Below are positions 19,698 to 29,027 of a stretch of 64,000 nt of DNA, piece after piece. Position 1 is the stretch's first letter. Every line of letters starts with the position of its first letter. The DNA is from the human T2T-CHM13v2.0 reference genome, Homo sapiens. The stretch lies in the NCBI RefSeq assembly GCF_009914755.1, contig NC_060932.1. One strand, written 5' to 3'. The notes under the pieces are model-generated. The model was not told the origin of the DNA and made no database searches. It saw only the letters and a program-made list of their open reading frames with translations. A program made the position numbers and the translations under genes.

Positions 19698-21999
19698 GGG
19701 AGGGGAGGGGGGCATCCTTTCATTCATCCCCAAACACCCCAGGGGTTCTTGGAAGGAGCTATGCCTCTACCCCTTCCCTACTTTGATGCCTGATTTTGCC
19801 CTAGGGCACAGGGCCTGTTCATTGCAAAGCCTCTACTGATTCCCTCCCATGATAGCCCCATCTAGGCCTTCCCTCCACCTTCTCCCTACTTCATCCCTGA
19901 GTTTCAGGGTTGAGTCTCCTCTCCCCATATTTACAAAACCCAGGTGGGTTGGGTAGCTGGTGTGATGCTATCTGGGACAGTCTTATCTAGCTACAAAGTG
20001 TGAATCAGTGATTACATCACACAGGGTTGGTGCCAGCCTGGCGGACTGCCATATTGCCAAGTAACCCAGTGGTTGAACCAGGTTGGGTTGAGTAATATCC
20101 ACCAATGGATAGTGAGTTTGTTAATCATGCAGCATAGTACACTGTTGATGAAAGTGTAACACCGAAGGCCTGGTTTGATTGGAGAAGGTGCAGGTGGGGC
20201 TGGATGCTGACTATGAAGACAGTCAGGGACAGTATCTTCCTCCCATACTACTCACTTGAGAAATACATAGAAATCTGGAAGGAAACATCTAGTTTAGCAA
20301 AGAGATGGATTATATGCTCAATGTTAGGACCTTTCCGCCATCTTGGATTCCCTTTGTTAAAAAGGAAGGACACTTCTATGAGGCTATTGAAGCCACAGTC
20401 TGAAATTTTAGAAGTTTCATGAGGTAAGAGAAGGGAATTCAAGATGGCAGCCGGTGACCTAAAATTGTGTGGGTGGGAAAATTTAAGATTCCATACTGCA
20501 TTCTCCTTCTTCATCTCTCACTTCAAAAACATTCTTTTCTAGGGCCACAGCCTACCTCCTACGCCCAGGTCTGGCCTCAACTTCTTGGTAACTATAGCCA
20601 ACCAGAAATACCACCCATATTTTTCTCTGTGATGGGGCTGCCTTGGGGATGCCGAAGAGCAGTTTCTGAGCAGGGACACGACATTTCTGTTGCTTTGTGG
20701 CTGACCTGGTCGGCACCTCAGGGTCTGAGATACAGATTCCAGTCACAAGCTGGTGGGCCATTTATACAATCTGGTGGGGTATAGCGCAGCATTATACACC
20801 AAGCCCCTAAACCTGGGTGAAGCAGATCATATGTGAAATGCACTGCAGAGGAACCCAGGTGAGTTTTTTTTAGAGGGCAGGCGGGAAGAAGGGGAGAGAG
20901 CAAAGACTGACTTGTGCAAAGACAGCTCTACAACAAGCCTCAAGGGATAAAGCCTTCCAAGGACTATGGGGAACAAGGTGAGGGGTGCAAAATGCAGATG
21001 CAGACACAGGAAAGAAGTGGAGGTTACATTTTCCTCAAGAGAAATGGAGACAGCTCTAGGGCTGGCAAATTAAGTTAAGGAGGAGGAATGTTCTAGGGAA
21101 GACAGCTTGGAGGATAGGAGAAGCATTGCTTTTATGGGAGGTAGAAATCATAAGGTATGGCAGTTTGAGGCTATGCAAATATTCCCTGTGTGTTCTCCAA
21201 ATCCCAAATGTCCTTTCTTCCTTTCAAGGCATTGGATCCCTGGGTCATTCATAGGAGCTGGTTTTCAGCGAGGTTCACCTTTACCAGGCAGCTCCAAATA
21301 GTGAGGCCTAGAGGAATCCCATCCAAGCGGGATTAAAATTATAGAAGTTTAAAACCTGATTTTTTTCCAGTTATCTGACCACAGAAGAGCTGCCAATCTC
21401 TCTGGTCATCTTGCCAACCCTGAAGAACCTCGGTCAAGTCTCCACCTGTTTTTCAGGCTTCAAAAGCTTTGGCAAGAGAACTACTCAGTGTGGCTGACAG
21501 GCCCTCCAGGGTCCTGTTCTGGCATTCCCTAAGACTGTCTCTAGAGAAATTGTTCATAAACCGGGAGATCTCCTCCCTTCTACCCCCAAATACCCATTGG
21601 AAGCTGGAAAGAAGGTTCTAGAAGATTCCCAGTCACCAGCCCTGACTCCCATGAATTTACCTAACCTGTTCGCCTAATCCCTCTGGCAGTGTGAGGCTTA
21701 CAGAAGGGTGGAGGGGAATTCTATTCTCCTGGTACCACAGTAAACACTCAAAACTATTTGAAACACCAGAACCTTGCACAAAATTCTGACCTACTTCGAA
21801 TAACACCAAGTTCCACATTTCCACTTTGAGAGTTTTCAGAGGAAGAACAGCAAAATTAGGCATAACAACCTATCAAACAAACCACCAGCCAAAAACAAAC
21901 CAAGACAAAAAACAGGCCAAACTAAAGCTTTATGCTATAAAAACAAGAAATAAAATAAGGAGATTTATAGGCCGGCTGATTGTCAGCAAACACAATATA

Positions 22000-22010
22000 T
22001 TTACTGTATT
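22000..22010 (-). terminator. EGR3: Probable EGR3 poly(A) signal (non-canonical AATACA/AGTAAA)
   Basis: Minus strand ...CTAATACAGTAAATATATTGTGTTTGCTGACA, then CTCCTTATTTTATTTCTTGTTTTT downstream element. Confidence 0.55.
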
Positions 22011-23233
22011 AGCATTTGCTCACAGTGCAAATGGTACAACATTACACCATTTCAATATTTCGGTTTTTAAAAATGCTGTTTTCATTAACTATATTATATT
22101 GGCATTACAATATGACAAAGGAGCAAATGAAATGTTGGTGAAGAATTTCACCTTTTCACAATATCAAGCATATTTTTTTAACCTTAGTATAAGGTACTAT
22201 AAATCCAAGAAATAAAAACATCCACAAAATATATTACATCTGGTTTGTCTTTTTTCTAAGTACTCAACTTTATACAAAAGTCTTTCAAAAAATATCATTC
22301 CCCATAGGTTTTCCTGTTTAAAACCTGATTTTTTTCTCTCAGTTCACATAAGTTAGAGTGCATTTTCTTTTGTTGCTTTTTTTTTTTAAACATGCAGACA
22401 TATAAAAAATCTGGATAGCACAACCTTTTGGCAACAAAGTTATTTTTCTCTTAGTTTAGCTTAATGTCTGAGAACAGTTTTATTAAAACAAAGGAAAACT
22501 CAATTATCATGCAGTGACATGCATATACCAGAAGGAGCGAGGAAAAAATATTAAAGGGTATCTGATTCCTCCTTCTAGCTTGGAAGTGACCAAAATTTTT
22601 GCTTTTTTAATAATCATCACATTATAAAAAGTATTCAGCAAAATACTGTCTCTGCAAAGAAAGATTTTACCCTTCAGCTGAAAAAATATGGGCCCTCCTG
22701 GCAAACTTCATCTTCTTCTCTCTCCTTCTACAAAAAGTCCAAGTACCTGGAAATTCACAACCCCCTGCTCTTCGATATCCCCCCTTTCCACTAGAGTCCT
22801 TTTAGTATTATTTATCCACCACCAAAAATCAAAACAAAACAAAACAAAAATGGTACTTCTTTTTCTTAAAAAAGAAAAAAGTGGAAAACGCATAAAGTGA
22901 CTTTAAAAACAGACATTCTGTAAACTCCAGACCTTTGTTCCTTCTCTCTGGGCAACTTACTGACCACAGGAGAAGTAACGCTAACAGGAACAGTACATTC
23001 AGTCAAGACCATGCTGCAAGCTGTGGCAGAGAGCAACCTTCCCTATTACTCCACTTCAAAGGAGCCACCCTGTACGAGAAGGGCTGGCAGGACAGCTGGG
23101 GAAGAGGGGTGCCTGAGAAGAGGTGAGGTAGGGTGGGGAGAAGGTGAGACTGGGTATGGAAAGGAGACACCTCATTCATCCACATGGATTCATGAAAAAA
23201 TCCCCATATCTTTGAGGAAATTTTGGACAGAGA

Positions 23234-23360
23234 TGTGTATATGTGTATACACACATATCCATACATAGATGTGTATATGTGTATATATGTACACTCACAC
23301 GTATATGTACAGATATGTGTGCATCTATATCCACACACATAACACACGTATGTAGATATA
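23234..23360. repeat. Degenerate (TA/CA/TG)n low-complexity tract in EGR3 3'UTR
   Basis: Read directly; a similar tract lies at ~23490-23580. Confidence 0.8.
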
Positions 23361-24149
23361 ATCTCATCAGTTAACATTTTCATAAAAAATAAATCATTTA
23401 AAGCTGTATACGCCTACAAATTCTCTTTATTCCGGTGCACTGCACTGGATAACCAAGTACCTTAGAGATTTTATTTTGCTAGGAATACATATTGTGTGTA
23501 TGTTATGTATATGTACGCATGTGCATCTTTATACACATGCATGCATATACATACACATACATACACACGCACACCATATACTTATATTTAAATTCTATCT
23601 GTTGTGTTGGTGATGACAAAGGGCAAAAGCAGAGCCAGCTTCCCCATGATGGTGGGAAGGAGAAATTGCTATGTAATTGAGAGAAGACACAAAGCTGGAG
23701 TGGCTGGTTGAAGCCTGCCTTTCTGGGAAAAGATTTTGAAAGAGATGGGAGAAGGTTTAGAGGGGAGAAGGGGAAGGAGTGGGAGGGCAGAGGGCAAACT
23801 CAGGAACATAGATTTCTTAGAGTGGGGCTAAGGAAATACACATATATTTTAAAAGGCAGGCTCAGCGATGGCTGCTCTTTCTCCCCACAGATCAAACTGC
23901 CCTGAGGCCTAAGAGGGAAGCGCTCAGAAAAGGAGGGGTTCTGAGGGGCCAAACCCGAAGCGGCGGCAGCAGCACCGCGTCGGCGGCATCCGAGGCATTT
24001 CTCTAAGAAACATGATTTCAGAGCGGATGGAAGACCACCTCCTCCAGCCACGTGCGGACCCCCAGCATGGGACATCTCCCAGCGGCTTGGGGACCCGAGG
24101 TGGGGAAGAGTTTGGGGTAAACACAGCCCAGTTCAGCTCAAGAGTCTTA

Positions 24150-24260
24150 AACACACACGCTTGCGCGCGCGCACACACACACACTCACACACACACATAC
24201 ACACACACGCGAGCACGCACACACTCGCGCGCATCCCCGCACGCAGGCGCGCGTGCGTGC
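24150..24260. repeat. (CA)n/(CG)n alternating tract in EGR3 3'UTR
   Basis: acacacacgcttgcgcgcgcgcacacacac...gcgcgcgtgcgtgc. Confidence 0.85.
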
Positions 24261-24724
24261 GGCGGGCAGCAAGCTCTGCGCTTTGGTGCGCTCCTTACCC
24301 CCTCCCCCTCTCGAGTCTTCGAGGGGGTATAGAGGGAGACGTGGGGGAAACAATGAGGTGTTTGGGTCGGGCGAGGGTTGGATGGGCTCCGCCTTCAGTC
24401 CCTTGCAGGTCCTTGGCGCGGCCCGGCGGCCCCTGGATCAAGGCGATCCGAACTGAACAAAGCGGGCTAGACGCCACCTTTCCGCCCCCACGCCTTGGCT
24501 AAGTGGGGGACCGCGAGGGGAAGGCGCCTCCAGCCCTGGCCCCTGACCGCTGGCCGGCGTGAAAGGTTGGGAACCGGGGGCATCGAAGGGGAAGCAAGGG
24601 GCCGCACGTCCATGGAGAGGCCAGGGCGCGGCCCCTACGCCTCCGTGGCTGGCTTTCCCGCTGCTTTCAGGCTAGCAGCCGGGAGGCACTGGAGGGGAAA
24701 AGTGGGGATCTGGGGGCCCGATCC

Positions 24725-26065
<1,341 letters not shown>

Positions 26066-26553
26066 CTACAGGTAGTTTCAGACCCGGAGCGCGCTGGGCT
26101 CTCGCTCTCCACCGCACACAACTCGGCCTCTTCCCTTGGCCCTGTCCGCTCCAGGACGCCGCGCCTTTCCCTCCCCGGCGATGCCCCCCACGCGCGCTGC
26201 TCCCGGGTCGCCGACCCAGAGCGCTCCGACGCTTTGTCCTCGGAGCGTAGAAGGGTGTCGCCCTCAAAGGGAGCTCTCCCTTCACCTACCCCGGCCCCAG
26301 CCTCCTCGGGCATGAAGGAGCTTTAGGCTCTTGCTGGAGGGGAAAATCCTAGCCCCAGCTAGGGAGGGTGGAGAGCGGCGGAAAACCGGCCGGTGTCTCC
26401 ATGGCGGGAGAGGCCGCCCTTCCCCAGCTCCCCGGCCCCGGGATCGTTCCCCGTGGCAGGCCCTCGCCCCGCGGGTGAACCCCCTCCTTCTCCCCGCCGT
26501 CCCCACACCCCCACGGCTTTGCTGAACGCCCCGGAAAGGCAGCGTCGCAGTAC

Positions 26554-26593
26554 CTCTCCCACCGCGGGGACTCCACGCCGCACATGGCTCCAT
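26554..26593 (-). CDS. EGR3: EGR3 alternative first coding exon (MEPCAAWSPRGGR)
   Basis: ATG at 26593; 40 nt ending AGAG|GTACTG, phase 1, in frame with exon 2, giving 349 aa. Agrees with my recollection of an annotated EGR3 isoform. Confidence 0.75.
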
Positions 26594-26899
26594 CCCGGGT
26601 GGGAGGCTGAGGGAGTAAGGGGGGAGAGCGCGGGTGAAAAAGACGCCGGGCTCCTCCCGGGAAGAGGGCGACAGCACCACGCCTTGCGCGTAGCCCGGCG
26701 ATCGGGCCCCCTGCGTGGTGAGGGAGAACCCCAGAGCCGCTCGCACCTACCTCCCTCCGGTCGGCGGCTGCCCCCACCCGGGAGAACCGAAGCCTCTACC
26801 GTGGCGTCGCCAACCTAGCCTTCTCGATCGAGGAGGGCGGGAGGAGTGGGTGGGAAAAGCAACTCGCCCCCCGCAAAATTCCCAGCGCGCCCCCATCTC

Positions 26900-26970
26900 T
26901 CCATCCATTTATCTATCCACCCATCCACCCATCCATCCATCCATCCATCCATCCATCCATCCATCCATCA
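26900..26970. repeat. (CCAT)n tetranucleotide microsatellite in EGR3 intron 1
   Basis: Read directly. Confidence 0.95.
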
Positions 26971-27042
26971 CCAGGTCGTCCCCTCCTCCTCTTCCTCTCC
27001 CCTTCCTTCCTCGCTGCCTCGCCGCCTCCCCGCCGCCCTTAC

Positions 27043-27196
27043 CTGTAGCCATCTGATTGTAATGGACTACCGAGTCGCTGCTGCCGGAGAAGAGGTTGAG
27101 CGCGCTGGGGATCTCCTCGGGGTACAGATTGTCAGGCAGTTGGTTTAGCAAACTGCTCATGGTCACCGGCAGCTTCTCGGCGAGTTTGCCGGTCAT
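27043..27196 (-). CDS. EGR3: EGR3 exon 1 CDS ([51 protein letters not shown])
   Basis: ATG at 27196, donor ACAG|GTAAG at 27042; 154 nt, phase 1, joins exon 2. Confidence 0.98.
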
Positions 27197-27210
27197 AGCA
27201 CTCCCGAGCT

Positions 27211-27243
27211 GCCGCCGCCGCCGCCACCGCCGCCACCGCCGCC
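27211..27243 (-). repeat. Proximal GGC/GGT trinucleotide tract (11 units) in EGR3 5'UTR
   Basis: ggc ggc ggt ggc ggc ggt ggc ggc ggc ggc ggc, ending 14 nt before the ATG. Confidence 0.95.
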
Positions 27244-27597
27244 GCTCGCTCCTAACGCAGCTTCCAGGCAAGCGGCATCCGAGAGGCGATCCGTGGTGCA
27301 GGGGAAAAGCATGCGAGAGGGAAAGTTCGGGGGGAGGGGGGAGGGAAGAAGGGAAGGGATGGGCCAGGAGAGGGGATCTTCTCTTTTTTGGGGGGCGGGA
27401 GAGGGCCCCAGGGGGTAATCCTCTTGGGTGCCTCAGCTGGTGCGGTATGAGGCTGGGTCGTGGGGGGGGTGGGGCGTGTGCGGGGGGTGGGGTGGGGGCT
27501 GGGCTGGGGGGGGATCTCGGCTCAAGGGGGTCGGACGCGGCCTCAGTATTGATCTCACAAACAGACACGCGCCCGCCGCCCCCCCGCCCCCCGATCT

Positions 27598-27612
27598 GCC
27601 ACCGCCACCGCC

Positions 27613-27651
<39 letters not shown>
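27598..27651 (-). repeat. Distal (GGC)10(GGTGGC)4 tract in EGR3 5' leader
   Basis: 18 Gly-codon units; degenerate extension to ~27697. Confidence 0.95.
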
Positions 27652-27753
27652 TCTGCCGCCGCTGCCGCCGCTGCTACCACCACCACCAGCCCCGCCGCTT
27701 CCTAGCAAGCTCACTGCTGCCCAAAAGCTCCCAGCCAGGGAACTCCACCAGCC

Positions 27754-27837
27754 TATTTATCTGAGCCCCGGGAAAGCTCCGTGACGTAGCTGCCCATATA
27801 TGGACAGACAAAGCCCAGCCGAAGGGGCGCGACGTCA
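27754..27837 (-). promoter_or_regulatory. EGR3: EGR3 core promoter: TATA-like box, CRE half-site, CArG/SRE, near-consensus CRE
   Basis: ATAAATA 27760-27754; TGACGT 27782-27787; perfect CArG CCATATATGG 27794-27803; CGACGTCA 27830-27837. Typical immediate-early architecture; TSS inferred near 27730. Confidence 0.85.
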
Positions 27838-29027
27838 CAATGGAAGCTCCTCACAATGGAACATTAGAAAGCAGGAAGCGGGCCGCAGCCAACGTGCGGC
27901 GCCCGCACCGCTCGCGGCTCTTGAAAAAAAGAGAAGGGGAGAAGAAACAAGAAGAATGCGAGAAGAGAGAGGAAAGAAGGATACAGCTGCATGCAAAGCG
28001 CAAAGCGCGTAGCGTGGAGTCGAAACACCAGTAACTCATTGTGTGTGTTTATTTGAGGTTTGCGTTAGGAGAGCGCATTGGGGAGAGGTGGGCGGTGGGG
28101 TGGGGTTGTTTGCAAGTGGTCTCCAACACCCCAGCAGTTAGAAAGAGAGTTGAAAACATCTGGCGAAATCCCTTTGCAGCCCGGGAACTGCTGGGGAACC
28201 CGGAAGGCGTGCGTTGCGCCCCTGCTACCTCAGCGGCTCCAGCGTTCGGGATCCTATCCGAGATTAAGAGAAAGGGAGTGCTTCCCTTTGTGGGGGGAAG
28301 GAGGGGTGCGCGCAGGGTTGGGGGGGTGTTTCAACTTGTCAGAATTCCTTGGTCCAATATCCCAAGAACTTTTGTGCCAACTTCACTCTGATTCGCCGCC
28401 CCTGCCCCTCCCTGGGCCCCTGACCCGGCGCTGACTCTAGGCTGAGCGCAGTGGCGAGGAGATTCGGAGCACCCCAGCAGTTGCGCCAAAGACAAGAGCC
28501 CCATCCATATGGGGTCGAGGATGTGCGGTTTTCGTGGTGAAGAGGAAAGAATGAAGTTGAAGGGATAGATAAACACGTGCACTGAATCCCCAGTAAATTC
28601 CCTAACGGTTCCAAGCAGCCTCTGTGGCCACAGGATGGCAGGAGGGCCCAGCAGGCCCGGGCGCAGTCGCTGTCTACTGCTGCCTGCGAAGGGCCCGCCA
28701 GAGTTCCAGAAGGAGGACGCCGAACCCACAGTCTCTGAGCCACTGGGGGCCTCCCCTAGTCTCTGCCCTCCCCCTCGCCTTCCACAGGGCTGTCCCCATT
28801 GCTGCCTGCCGGCGCTCCGCAGTCAAGGGCGGCCTGTGTGCCGACCCGGAGCGCTTTCACCTCCCGGAGCGGCAGCAGATCCCGGGGGCGGCTGCTGTGC
28901 TCCCTGGGGCCTGCTCCCGAGGCGCGCGCAGCCGGCCCGCGGGCGAGGGGGAGGAGAGGGCGGGAGCATGGGGGTGCGACCCCAAATCACATCGGCTTGG
29001 CGGGGGAGGATTCCCTCCTCGGTGGCC

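What the first reader, a model, noticed from the sequence alone, without database searches (positions are those of the whole stretch)
27433..27714. Second poly-Gly uORF (GUG start, 18 consecutive Gly) near the inferred EGR3 cap site
Seen: GTG at 27714 (G at -3) lies ~15 nt after the TSS inferred from the TATA-like box. It opens 93 codons including G18, encoded by (GGC)10(GGTGGC)4, followed by a Pro-rich tail. Established: FMRpolyG initiates at near-cognate codons just upstream of a structured CGG repeat that slows scanning. Inference: both repeat tracts of this leader sit in polyG frames. The pure (GGC)10 run is the more expansion-prone one and could also nucleate methylation silencing.
Basis: partly seen in the sequence, partly recalled or inferred. 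Interest (0 to 1): 0.7.

Follow-up and report, generated by a model that had tools for sequence, protein, structure and literature searches.

The report
GGC repeat in EGR3 mRNA leader
A short, interrupted GGC repeat near the start of the EGR3 messenger RNA can be read as an 18-glycine stretch from a weak GUG start, but GC-rich sequence gives such a frame by chance, nothing shows that it is translated, and it looks like an ordinary 5'UTR repeat.

Summary
On the minus strand a GTG at 27714-27712 (G at -3, A at +4) opens 93 sense codons ending at TGA 27435-27433. These include 18 consecutive Gly encoded by (GGC)10(GGTGGC)4 at 27651-27598, followed by a Pro-rich tail. The RefSeq TSS (27732) puts the GUG at mRNA nt 19-21.

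It is not more than chance. 3358 of 5000 dinucleotide shuffles of the 81 nt upstream also give a near-cognate start in the Gly frame. 44.5% of 2000 shuffles give a tail at least as long. All six frames are open across the tract.

The tract is the intact core of a 34-unit GGC array decaying by CpG transitions. It lies in a 536-nt, 72% GC, strongly structured leader.

The leader meets the published sequence criteria for a polyG uORF, as in FMR1, GIPC1 and NOTCH2NLC. I found no evidence of translation, expansion or disease. No paper in seven full-text searches discusses it, and three supplements searched for uORF or polyG evidence do not list EGR3.

One CGG catalogue lists only the other, AUG-proximal EGR3 repeat.

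Verdict: an ordinary 5'UTR CGG-class repeat and an untested candidate polyG uORF.

The parts
27754..27760 (-). TATA-like box (ATAAATA), about 27-29 nt upstream of the annotated TSS
   Evidence: TSS 27732 from the hub's RefSeq table
27732..27732 (-). Annotated 5' end of NM_004430.3 (mRNA nt 1)
   Evidence: hub annotation table; consistent with the TATA spacing
27712..27714 (-). Candidate near-cognate GUG start (mRNA nt 19-21; context gcagcaGUGa), in the apical loop of a weak cap-proximal hairpin (nt 5-36, -11.6 kcal/mol)
27706..27708 (-). Second in-frame near-cognate UUG (mRNA nt 25-27; A at -3, C at +4)
27433..27714 (-). Gly-frame ORF: 93 sense codons plus TGA (34 Gly, 15 Pro); no Pfam family
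27598..27699 (-). Degenerate 34-unit GGC array (19 GGC, 8 GGT, 4 AGC, 1 GGG, 1 GCT, 1 AGA)
27598..27651 (-). Core (GGC)10(GGTGGC)4 = 18 Gly; on its own it folds as a -30.5 kcal/mol hairpin
27555..27689 (-). Ala-frame ORF from CUG 27689 (gcggggCUGg), followed by three GUG codons; 44 codons to TGA 27557
27197..27673 (-). Arg frame of the repeat. It is the EGR3 CDS frame and is stop-free for 159 codons up to the main AUG.
27440..27530 (-). C-rich tract of the leader, predicted to pair with the G-rich repeat block (nt 34-300: -151.5 kcal/mol)
27193..27312 (-). Proximal AUG-initiated uORF in the same frame: 39 codons with 11 Gly; its TGA overlaps the main AUG (cuAUGAcc)
27194..27196 (-). EGR3 main AUG
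   Evidence: hub annotation

Best explanation
The feature is a normal-length, interrupted GGC (CGG-class) microsatellite in the first 135 nt of the EGR3 mRNA leader. It is the surviving core of a 34-unit array that is decaying by CpG transitions. Its Gly frame is open from the cap and carries two weak near-cognate starts (GUG at nt 19, UUG at nt 25), so the leader meets the sequence criteria for a polyG uORF. That is what a 72% GC leader gives by default.

Its most likely effect is at the RNA level. Together with the C-rich tract it pairs with, and with the downstream uAUG ORFs, it makes a long, very stable leader that restrains cap-dependent scanning to the EGR3 AUG.

Any Gly-frame initiation is probably a few percent of scanning ribosomes. 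It would give a 93-aa, low-complexity, unstable peptide with no function of its own.

Shown here: the sequence, the frames, the chance levels and the predicted structure. Inferred: the translational throttle and the low use of the GUG.
For: Sequence and frames.
Chance: 3358 of 5000 shuffles give a near-cognate in the Gly frame, and the tail length is reached in 44.5% of 2000 shuffles. All six frames are open.
Decay pattern: 12 of the 15 non-GGC units are GGT or AGC, the two CpG-transition products. 6 of the 15 change the amino acid in the Gly frame, so there is no sign of selection to keep Gly.
Structure: 536-nt leader, 72% GC, MFE -256.5 kcal/mol; G-rich block -60.0 and G+C blocks -151.5 kcal/mol.
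Commonness: 1836 of 6101 catalogued human CGG repeats lie in 5'UTRs and 93.1% are polymorphic (passages of PMC7844047).
Near-cognate efficiency: changing ACG to AUG raises FMRpolyG 10-30 fold (passages of PMC13270972).
Peptide stability: control-size GGC uORF peptides under 100 aa are unstable and hard to detect (passages of PMC12987736).
No Pfam family.
Against: The GUG has a purine at -3 and sits about 14-18 nt upstream of the first stable G-rich helices. At that spacing an inserted hairpin raised near-cognate initiation about 10-fold in FMR1 reporters. GIPC1 and FMR1 show that such uORFs are translated even at normal repeat size, so real translation is not excluded.

The leader's predicted folding energy is not lower than that of its shuffles (z -1.26 for nt 1-200; z +2.7 for the full leader). 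The stability therefore comes from composition and not from an evolved fold.

I could test no Ribo-seq, CAGE or cross-species data.
Confidence: 0.6

Rival explanations
1. This is a genuine FMRpolyG/uGIPpolyG-type uORF. Scanning 43S complexes slowed by the GGC structure initiate at GUG 27714 (or UUG 27708) and translate the 93-codon Gly-frame ORF at a biologically meaningful rate. That lowers EGR3 synthesis, because a long uORF followed by further uAUGs allows little reinitiation. On expansion it would yield a stable, toxic polyG protein.
For: The frame is open and starts are present. G lies at -3. Stable structure begins about 14-18 nt downstream, matching the 14-20 nt optimum. The leader meets two of the three published criteria: it lies in a transcript and is in frame with a near-cognate start with Kozak context. 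GIPC1 uses a CTG and FMR1 an ACG in the same arrangement.
Against: The arrangement is expected by chance. The GUG is 18 nt from the cap and has A at +4. In FMR1 the GUG plays only a minor role. Non-synonymous decay products (4 AGC, 1 GCT, 1 AGA) lie in the Gly frame. EGR3 is absent from the supplements searched and no paper mentions it. No expansion is known.
Confidence: 0.2
2. If the repeat is translated at all, the main non-AUG product is in the Ala frame. It would start at CUG 27689, which is followed by three GUG codons, and give a 44-codon Val/Ala-rich peptide ending at TGA 27557.
For: CUG 27689 has G at -3 and G at +4 and lies 43 nt from the cap, at the entry to the G-rich structure. By established knowledge CUG is the most efficient near-cognate codon; passages seen mention efficiencies up to 50% of AUG in an optimal context.
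Against: The codon lies inside the predicted structure rather than 14-20 nt upstream of it. In FMR1 the Ala frame is a minor product. There are no data for EGR3.
Confidence: 0.1
3. Most EGR3 transcripts start downstream of the tract, so the repeat is promoter DNA rather than leader, and no uORF exists in the dominant mRNA.
For: GC-rich repeats often truncate cDNAs, and alternative TSSs are common in CpG islands. I recall, from no call and unverified, that an earlier RefSeq version of NM_004430 had a 5'UTR of only about 357 nt, which would start near 27553.
Against: The current RefSeq Select transcript starts at 27732 (hub table). A TATA-like box lies 27-29 nt upstream, preceded by CArG and CRE elements typical of a focused immediate-early promoter.
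Confidence: 0.08
4. The Arg frame of the repeat is continuous with the EGR3 coding frame. Near-cognate initiation there (for example GUG 27568 or CUG 27436/27367/27301) would produce N-terminally extended EGR3 isoforms.
For: The frame is stop-free for 159 codons upstream of the AUG. Only 10.1% of 2000 shuffles reach this length.
Against: 10% is not unusual. No extended isoform appeared in any search. The known EGR3 isoforms I recall, from no call, arise from downstream AUGs.
Confidence: 0.03

Closest known systems
FMRpolyG uORF of FMR1 (ACG/GUG-initiated, CGG repeat read as Gly)
   Same: A CGG-class repeat in a 5'UTR, a Gly frame opened by near-cognate codons upstream of the repeat, and a start codon upstream of a stable repeat structure.
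   Different: The FMR1 start is reported as conserved and its translation is shown experimentally. The normal allele has about 30 units and the pathogenic range is 55-200 (passages). The EGR3 tract has 18 units (10 pure), its GUG is 18 nt from the cap, and nothing has been tested. The FMR1 uORF overlaps the main ORF start region, whereas the EGR3 ORF ends 237 nt before the AUG.
uGIPpolyG (GIPC1 5'UTR, CTG-initiated) and uN2CpolyG (NOTCH2NLC, AUG-initiated)
   Same: Small 5'UTR ORFs of under 100 aa at control size with an embedded GGC repeat in the Gly frame. At about 10 GGC they are translated but unstable.
   Different: For those genes, initiation sites were mapped by mass spectrometry and expansions cause OPDM2 or NIID. 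For EGR3 no expansion, disease link or product is known. EGR3 is absent from that paper's 3 held supplementary files.
Generic polymorphic 5'UTR CGG short tandem repeats (catalogue of Annear et al. 2021, PMC7844047)
   Same: Same motif class, location and size range. The catalogue has one EGR3 5'UTR locus (reference 11 units, median 18, range 3-46).
   Different: By my coordinate mapping, which rests partly on recalled hg19/hg38 coordinates, the catalogued locus is the proximal array (27211-27245). The distal tract of this finding is not listed.
GC-rich (CGG)4 / G-quadruplex leaders of eIF4A-dependent mRNAs (recalled from Wolfe et al. 2014; no call)
   Same: Many consecutive CGG units and a G3+ quadruplex motif in the leader (27592-27572). 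The leader is long and stable.
   Different: Helicase dependence of EGR3 translation was not tested. A search for EGR3 with eIF4A and 5 UTR found 0 papers.

Membership tests
polyG-encoding uORF (criteria in the Discussion of PMC12987736) | The repeat lies in a transcript that reaches the cytoplasm | tested here: inconclusive
   The repeat is inside exon 1 of NM_004430.3 (27043-27732, hub table) and the TATA spacing fits. No CAGE or 5'RACE data were available to confirm that the dominant TSS is upstream of 27714.
polyG-encoding uORF (criteria in the Discussion of PMC12987736) | [quoted passage not shown] | tested here: met
   GUG 27714 (G at -3, A at +4) and UUG 27708 (A at -3), with no stop before the repeat. 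This is also met in 3358 of 5000 shuffles.
polyG-encoding uORF (criteria in the Discussion of PMC12987736) | The product is large or stable enough to be detected, that is, the repeat is expanded | tested here: not met
   The reference allele encodes 93 aa with 18 Gly. Control-size peptides under 100 aa are described as unstable. No expanded allele is known.
polyG-encoding uORF | Translation in the Gly frame has been demonstrated (Ribo-seq, mass spectrometry or reporter) | not testable with these tools
   EGR3 is absent from the held supplements of Raj 2016 (1 file) and Ji 2015 (3 files). Three other sources, two Ribo-seq ORF papers and one tandem-repeat expansion study, were not held.
RAN translation in the strict sense (initiation inside an expanded repeat) | An expanded repeat and initiation without an upstream start codon | tested here: not met
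   There are 18 units only and upstream near-cognate codons are present.
5'UTR CGG-class short tandem repeat | At least 4 CGG/GGC units inside an annotated 5'UTR | tested here: met
   and the hub table.
5'UTR CGG-class short tandem repeat | Length polymorphism in the population | tested here: inconclusive
   The only catalogued EGR3 locus maps to the proximal array. The distal tract is not listed.

The most novel reading that the evidence does not exclude
The EGR3 leader carries two polyG uORFs in the same reading frame. The distal one starts at GUG/UUG and the proximal one at an AUG, with its stop overlapping the main AUG. The distal (GGC)10 tract was missed by at least one CGG catalogue, plausibly because TRF scores it as period 6/9. 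It could be translated with help from the structure 14-18 nt downstream of the GUG. In rare families it could expand into a new polyG disorder, or into methylation silencing of EGR3.
Probability: 0.05. Interest if true: 0.7.

Novelty: new member of a known kind. Interest (0 to 1): 0.28.

Why it matters
If the Gly frame were translated and the tract could expand, EGR3 would join FMR1, NOTCH2NLC, GIPC1, LRP12 and others as a candidate polyG or CGG-expansion locus. EGR3 is an activity-induced transcription factor of neurons, muscle spindles and lymphocytes. As things stand it is one of roughly 1,800 human 5'UTR CGG repeats, and nothing singles it out.

The practical point is modest. This distal tract seems absent from one widely used CGG catalogue. 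It may also confound short-read genotyping of the neighbouring catalogued EGR3 repeat. It should be added to repeat catalogues used for long-read screening.

Tried and rejected
Literature. Seven full-text searches found no paper that discusses an EGR3 repeat, uORF or polyG. They were: EGR3 with 'CGG repeat' (4 papers hold the terms, 2 listed), 'uORF' (6 papers), 'GGC' plus 'repeat' (124 papers, 25 listed, none about the locus by title or abstract), 'polyglycine' (1 paper), 'tandem repeat' plus 'expansion' (20 papers), 'upstream open reading' (8 papers) and 'eIF4A' plus '5 UTR' (0 papers). I read passages of the five most promising hits and all were irrelevant. The EGR3-promoter/TSS search returned only generic TATA papers.

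Supplements. EGR3 is absent from PMC12987736 (3 files), Raj 2016 (1 file), Ji 2015 (3 files) and PMC11760257 (2 files). Long files may have been cut when stored. Four papers were not held.

DNA-level reading as an EGR autoregulatory site: rejected. There are 0 exact GCGKGGGCG sites in 26900-28200. No Inr motif lies near the TSS.

Selection for Gly coding from the synonymous GGT interruptions: rejected. GGT and AGC are the two CpG-transition products and both occur (8 and 4).

ViennaRNA folding with the G-quadruplex option gave an implausible energy and a garbled structure string, so I did not use it.

Pfam: 0 families.

Cross-species conservation could not be tested, because none of the sequence collections on hand holds vertebrate genomes.

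Full report
OBSERVATION. On the minus strand, which is EGR3's strand, GTG occupies 27714-27712 with G at -3 (27717) and A at +4 (27711). Translating 27714-27433 gives 93 sense codons and a TGA at 27435-27433. The core is (GGC)10(GGTGGC)4 at 27651-27598, mRNA nt 82-135, which encodes 18 consecutive Gly. The 54-residue tail has 15 Pro. The hub's RefSeq table puts the 5' end of NM_004430.3 at 27732, so the GUG is mRNA nt 19-21, 18 nt from the cap. A TATA-like ATAAATA lies at 27760-27754. It is preceded by a CArG box (27803-27794) and two CRE-like sites (27837-27832 on the minus strand, 27782-27787 on the plus strand). This is a typical focused immediate-early promoter.

CHANCE. I shuffled the 81 nt between the TSS and the repeat while preserving dinucleotides. 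An ATG, CTG, GTG, TTG or ACG fell in the Gly frame with no intervening stop in 3358 of 5000 shuffles. The 54-codon tail was reached or exceeded in 44.5% of 2000 shuffles of the downstream leader. All six reading frames are open, with at least 48 aa stop-to-stop, across the tract. An open Gly frame with a near-cognate start is therefore the default for a GGC repeat in a 72% GC leader. It is not evidence of a gene.

ANATOMY OF THE LEADER. The 5'UTR is 536 nt and 72% GC.
- Frame 0 is the Gly frame of both GGC arrays. It has a single stop (TGA 27435) between them.
- The proximal array (27245-27211, 11 Gly) lies in an AUG-initiated uORF of 39 codons, from AUG 27312 (weak context tcgcAUGc). Its TGA overlaps the main AUG (cuAUGAcc).
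- Frame 1 is the Ala frame. After TAG 27704 it has CUG 27689 in a good context (G at -3, G at +4), followed by three GUG codons, and runs 44 codons to TGA 27557.
- Frame 2 is the Arg frame and also the EGR3 coding frame. It is stop-free for 159 codons up to the main AUG, a length reached by 10.1% of 2000 shuffles.

THE REPEAT IS A DECAYING ARRAY. Read in the Gly frame, 27699-27598 consists of 34 units: 19 GGC, 8 GGT, 4 AGC, 1 GGG, 1 GCT and 1 AGA. GGT and AGC are the two products of CpG transitions in (GGC)n, and they account for 12 of the 15 variant units. Six of the 15 change the amino acid in the Gly frame. The synonymous GGT interruptions are therefore explained by mutation bias and do not indicate selection on a Gly-coding frame.

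STRUCTURE. The first 200 nt fold at -91.7 kcal/mol, with z -1.26 against shuffles. The full leader folds at -256.5 kcal/mol, with z +2.7, meaning it is no more stable than its composition allows. In the predicted folds the GUG sits in the apical loop of a weak cap-proximal hairpin (nt 5-36, -11.6 kcal/mol). Stable G-rich helices begin at about nt 35-37. The G18 tract alone folds at -30.5 kcal/mol, the G-rich block (nt 34-165) at -60.0, and the G block plus the C-rich tract (nt 34-300) at -151.5. One G3+ quadruplex motif lies in the mRNA strand (27592-27572) and four lie on the plus strand (27319-27513).

WHAT IS KNOWN.
- Passages of PMC8918734 and PMC12987736 describe polyG uORFs in FMR1 (ACG start), NOTCH2NLC (AUG) and GIPC1 (CTG).
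- PMC12987736 states three requirements: a cytoplasmic transcript, a frame shared with an upstream AUG or near-cognate start with Kozak context, and sufficient product size. It also notes that control-size (about 10 GGC) peptides under 100 aa are translated but unstable.
- Passages of PMC13270972 show that a stable hairpin 14-20 nt downstream of the near-cognate start raises FMRpolyG about 10-fold, whereas 2-6 nt inhibits. ACG>AUG raises output 10-30 fold. The FMR1 GUG plays only a minor role.

Three points count against it. The GUG is 18 nt from the cap, and I recall, from no call, that Kozak found cap-proximal starts to be bypassed. It lacks G at +4. It competes with a CUG in a better context in the Ala frame.

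POLYMORPHISM. Supplementary file 2 of Annear et al. 2021 (PMC7844047) lists one EGR3 locus. It is at hg19 chr8:22550472, annotated UTR5, with reference 11 units, median 18, range 3-46 and cohort polymorphism 0.989. No other row has a start beginning 225504-225508.

I mapped this locus using recalled coordinates. The recalled GRCh38 span is chr8:22,687,659-22,693,480, which is 5,822 nt, the same length as window 21911-27732. The recalled hg19 start is 22,545,172. With these, window 27211 maps exactly to hg19 22550472. The reference length of 11 also equals the 11 GGY units of the proximal array. The catalogued locus is therefore the proximal array, not the tract of this finding.

The distal tract is probably missing because TRF reports it only with periods 6 and 9, and the catalogue kept CGG-type trinucleotide motifs. 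This is an inference.

The published median of 18 equals the distal tract's 18 units. The two arrays also share a 3' flank (GGCAGATCGGG and GGCAGCTCGGG) and lie 353 nt apart edge to edge (387 nt start to start). I recall, from no call, that ExpansionHunter pulls in reads from about 1 kb around a locus, which would cover that distance. Cross-mapping is therefore plausible but unproven. The length variability of the distal tract is unknown to me.

In the same paper, 1836 of 6101 CGG repeats lie in 5'UTRs and 93.1% are polymorphic. The class is common.

NEGATIVE RESULTS. Seven EGR3-centred full-text searches and five passage checks found nothing on an EGR3 repeat, uORF or polyG. EGR3 is absent from the held supplements of PMC12987736, Raj 2016, Ji 2015 and PMC11760257. 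Four other papers were not held. Pfam finds nothing in the peptide. I could not test conservation, because no vertebrate genomes are on hand.

CONCLUSION. The most likely reading (0.6) is an ordinary, normal-length, decaying CGG-class repeat. It contributes to a long, stable, uORF-bearing leader that limits EGR3 translation, with at most low-level use of the Gly frame. A genuinely used polyG uORF (0.2), a preferred Ala frame (0.1), a TSS downstream of the tract (0.08) and an N-terminal extension (0.03) remain possible. The locus is a new, untested candidate member of a known kind. Its interest is low to moderate.

Noticed in passing
27193-27312 (-): An AUG-initiated uORF of 39 codons (AUG 27312, weak context) reads the proximal GGC array as 11 Gly and ends at a TGA that overlaps the EGR3 start codon (cuAUGAcc). 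This is a classic overlap arrangement for termination-reinitiation or repression, and it is in the same frame as the distal Gly ORF.
   Followed up: partly
27254-27278 (-): A second uAUG (27278, context tctcggAUGc) opens an 8-codon ORF ending at TAG 27254.
   Followed up: no
27197-27673 (-): The EGR3 coding frame is stop-free for 159 codons upstream of the AUG and reads the distal repeat as poly-Arg. 10.1% of 2000 shuffles do as well. It contains in-frame GUG 27568 and CUG 27436, 27367 and 27301.
   Followed up: partly
27555-27689 (-): The Ala-frame ORF starts at a CUG with G at -3 and G at +4, followed by three GUG codons. On paper this is a better non-AUG start than the GUG of the finding.
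   Followed up: partly
27585-27600 and 27200-27215 (-): The two GGC arrays share a nearly identical 3' flank (GGCAGATCGGG and GGCAGCTCGGG). This may be low-complexity chance or an old local duplication. It could also confuse short-read repeat genotyping.
   Followed up: no
27211-27245; Annear 2021 supplementary file 2, row 5421: The published CGG catalogue gives the proximal EGR3 repeat a median of 18 units against a reference of 11, with range 3-46. 18 is the unit count of the uncatalogued distal tract, so the calls may mix the two arrays.
   Followed up: partly
27319-27513 (+): Four G3+ quadruplex motifs lie on the plus (template) strand, opposite the C-rich middle of the leader. The mRNA is G-rich and then C-rich, and the two blocks are predicted to pair.
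   Followed up: no
26900-26969: A (TCCA)17.5 tetranucleotide repeat, (GGAT)n on the EGR3 strand, begins 74 nt inside intron 1, counted from the exon 1 donor at 27043.
   Followed up: no
27782-27837: The promoter has the immediate-early layout: CRE-like TGACGT at 27837-27832 (-) and 27782-27787 (+), and a palindromic CArG box CCATATATGG at 27803-27794, all upstream of the TATA-like box.
   Followed up: no
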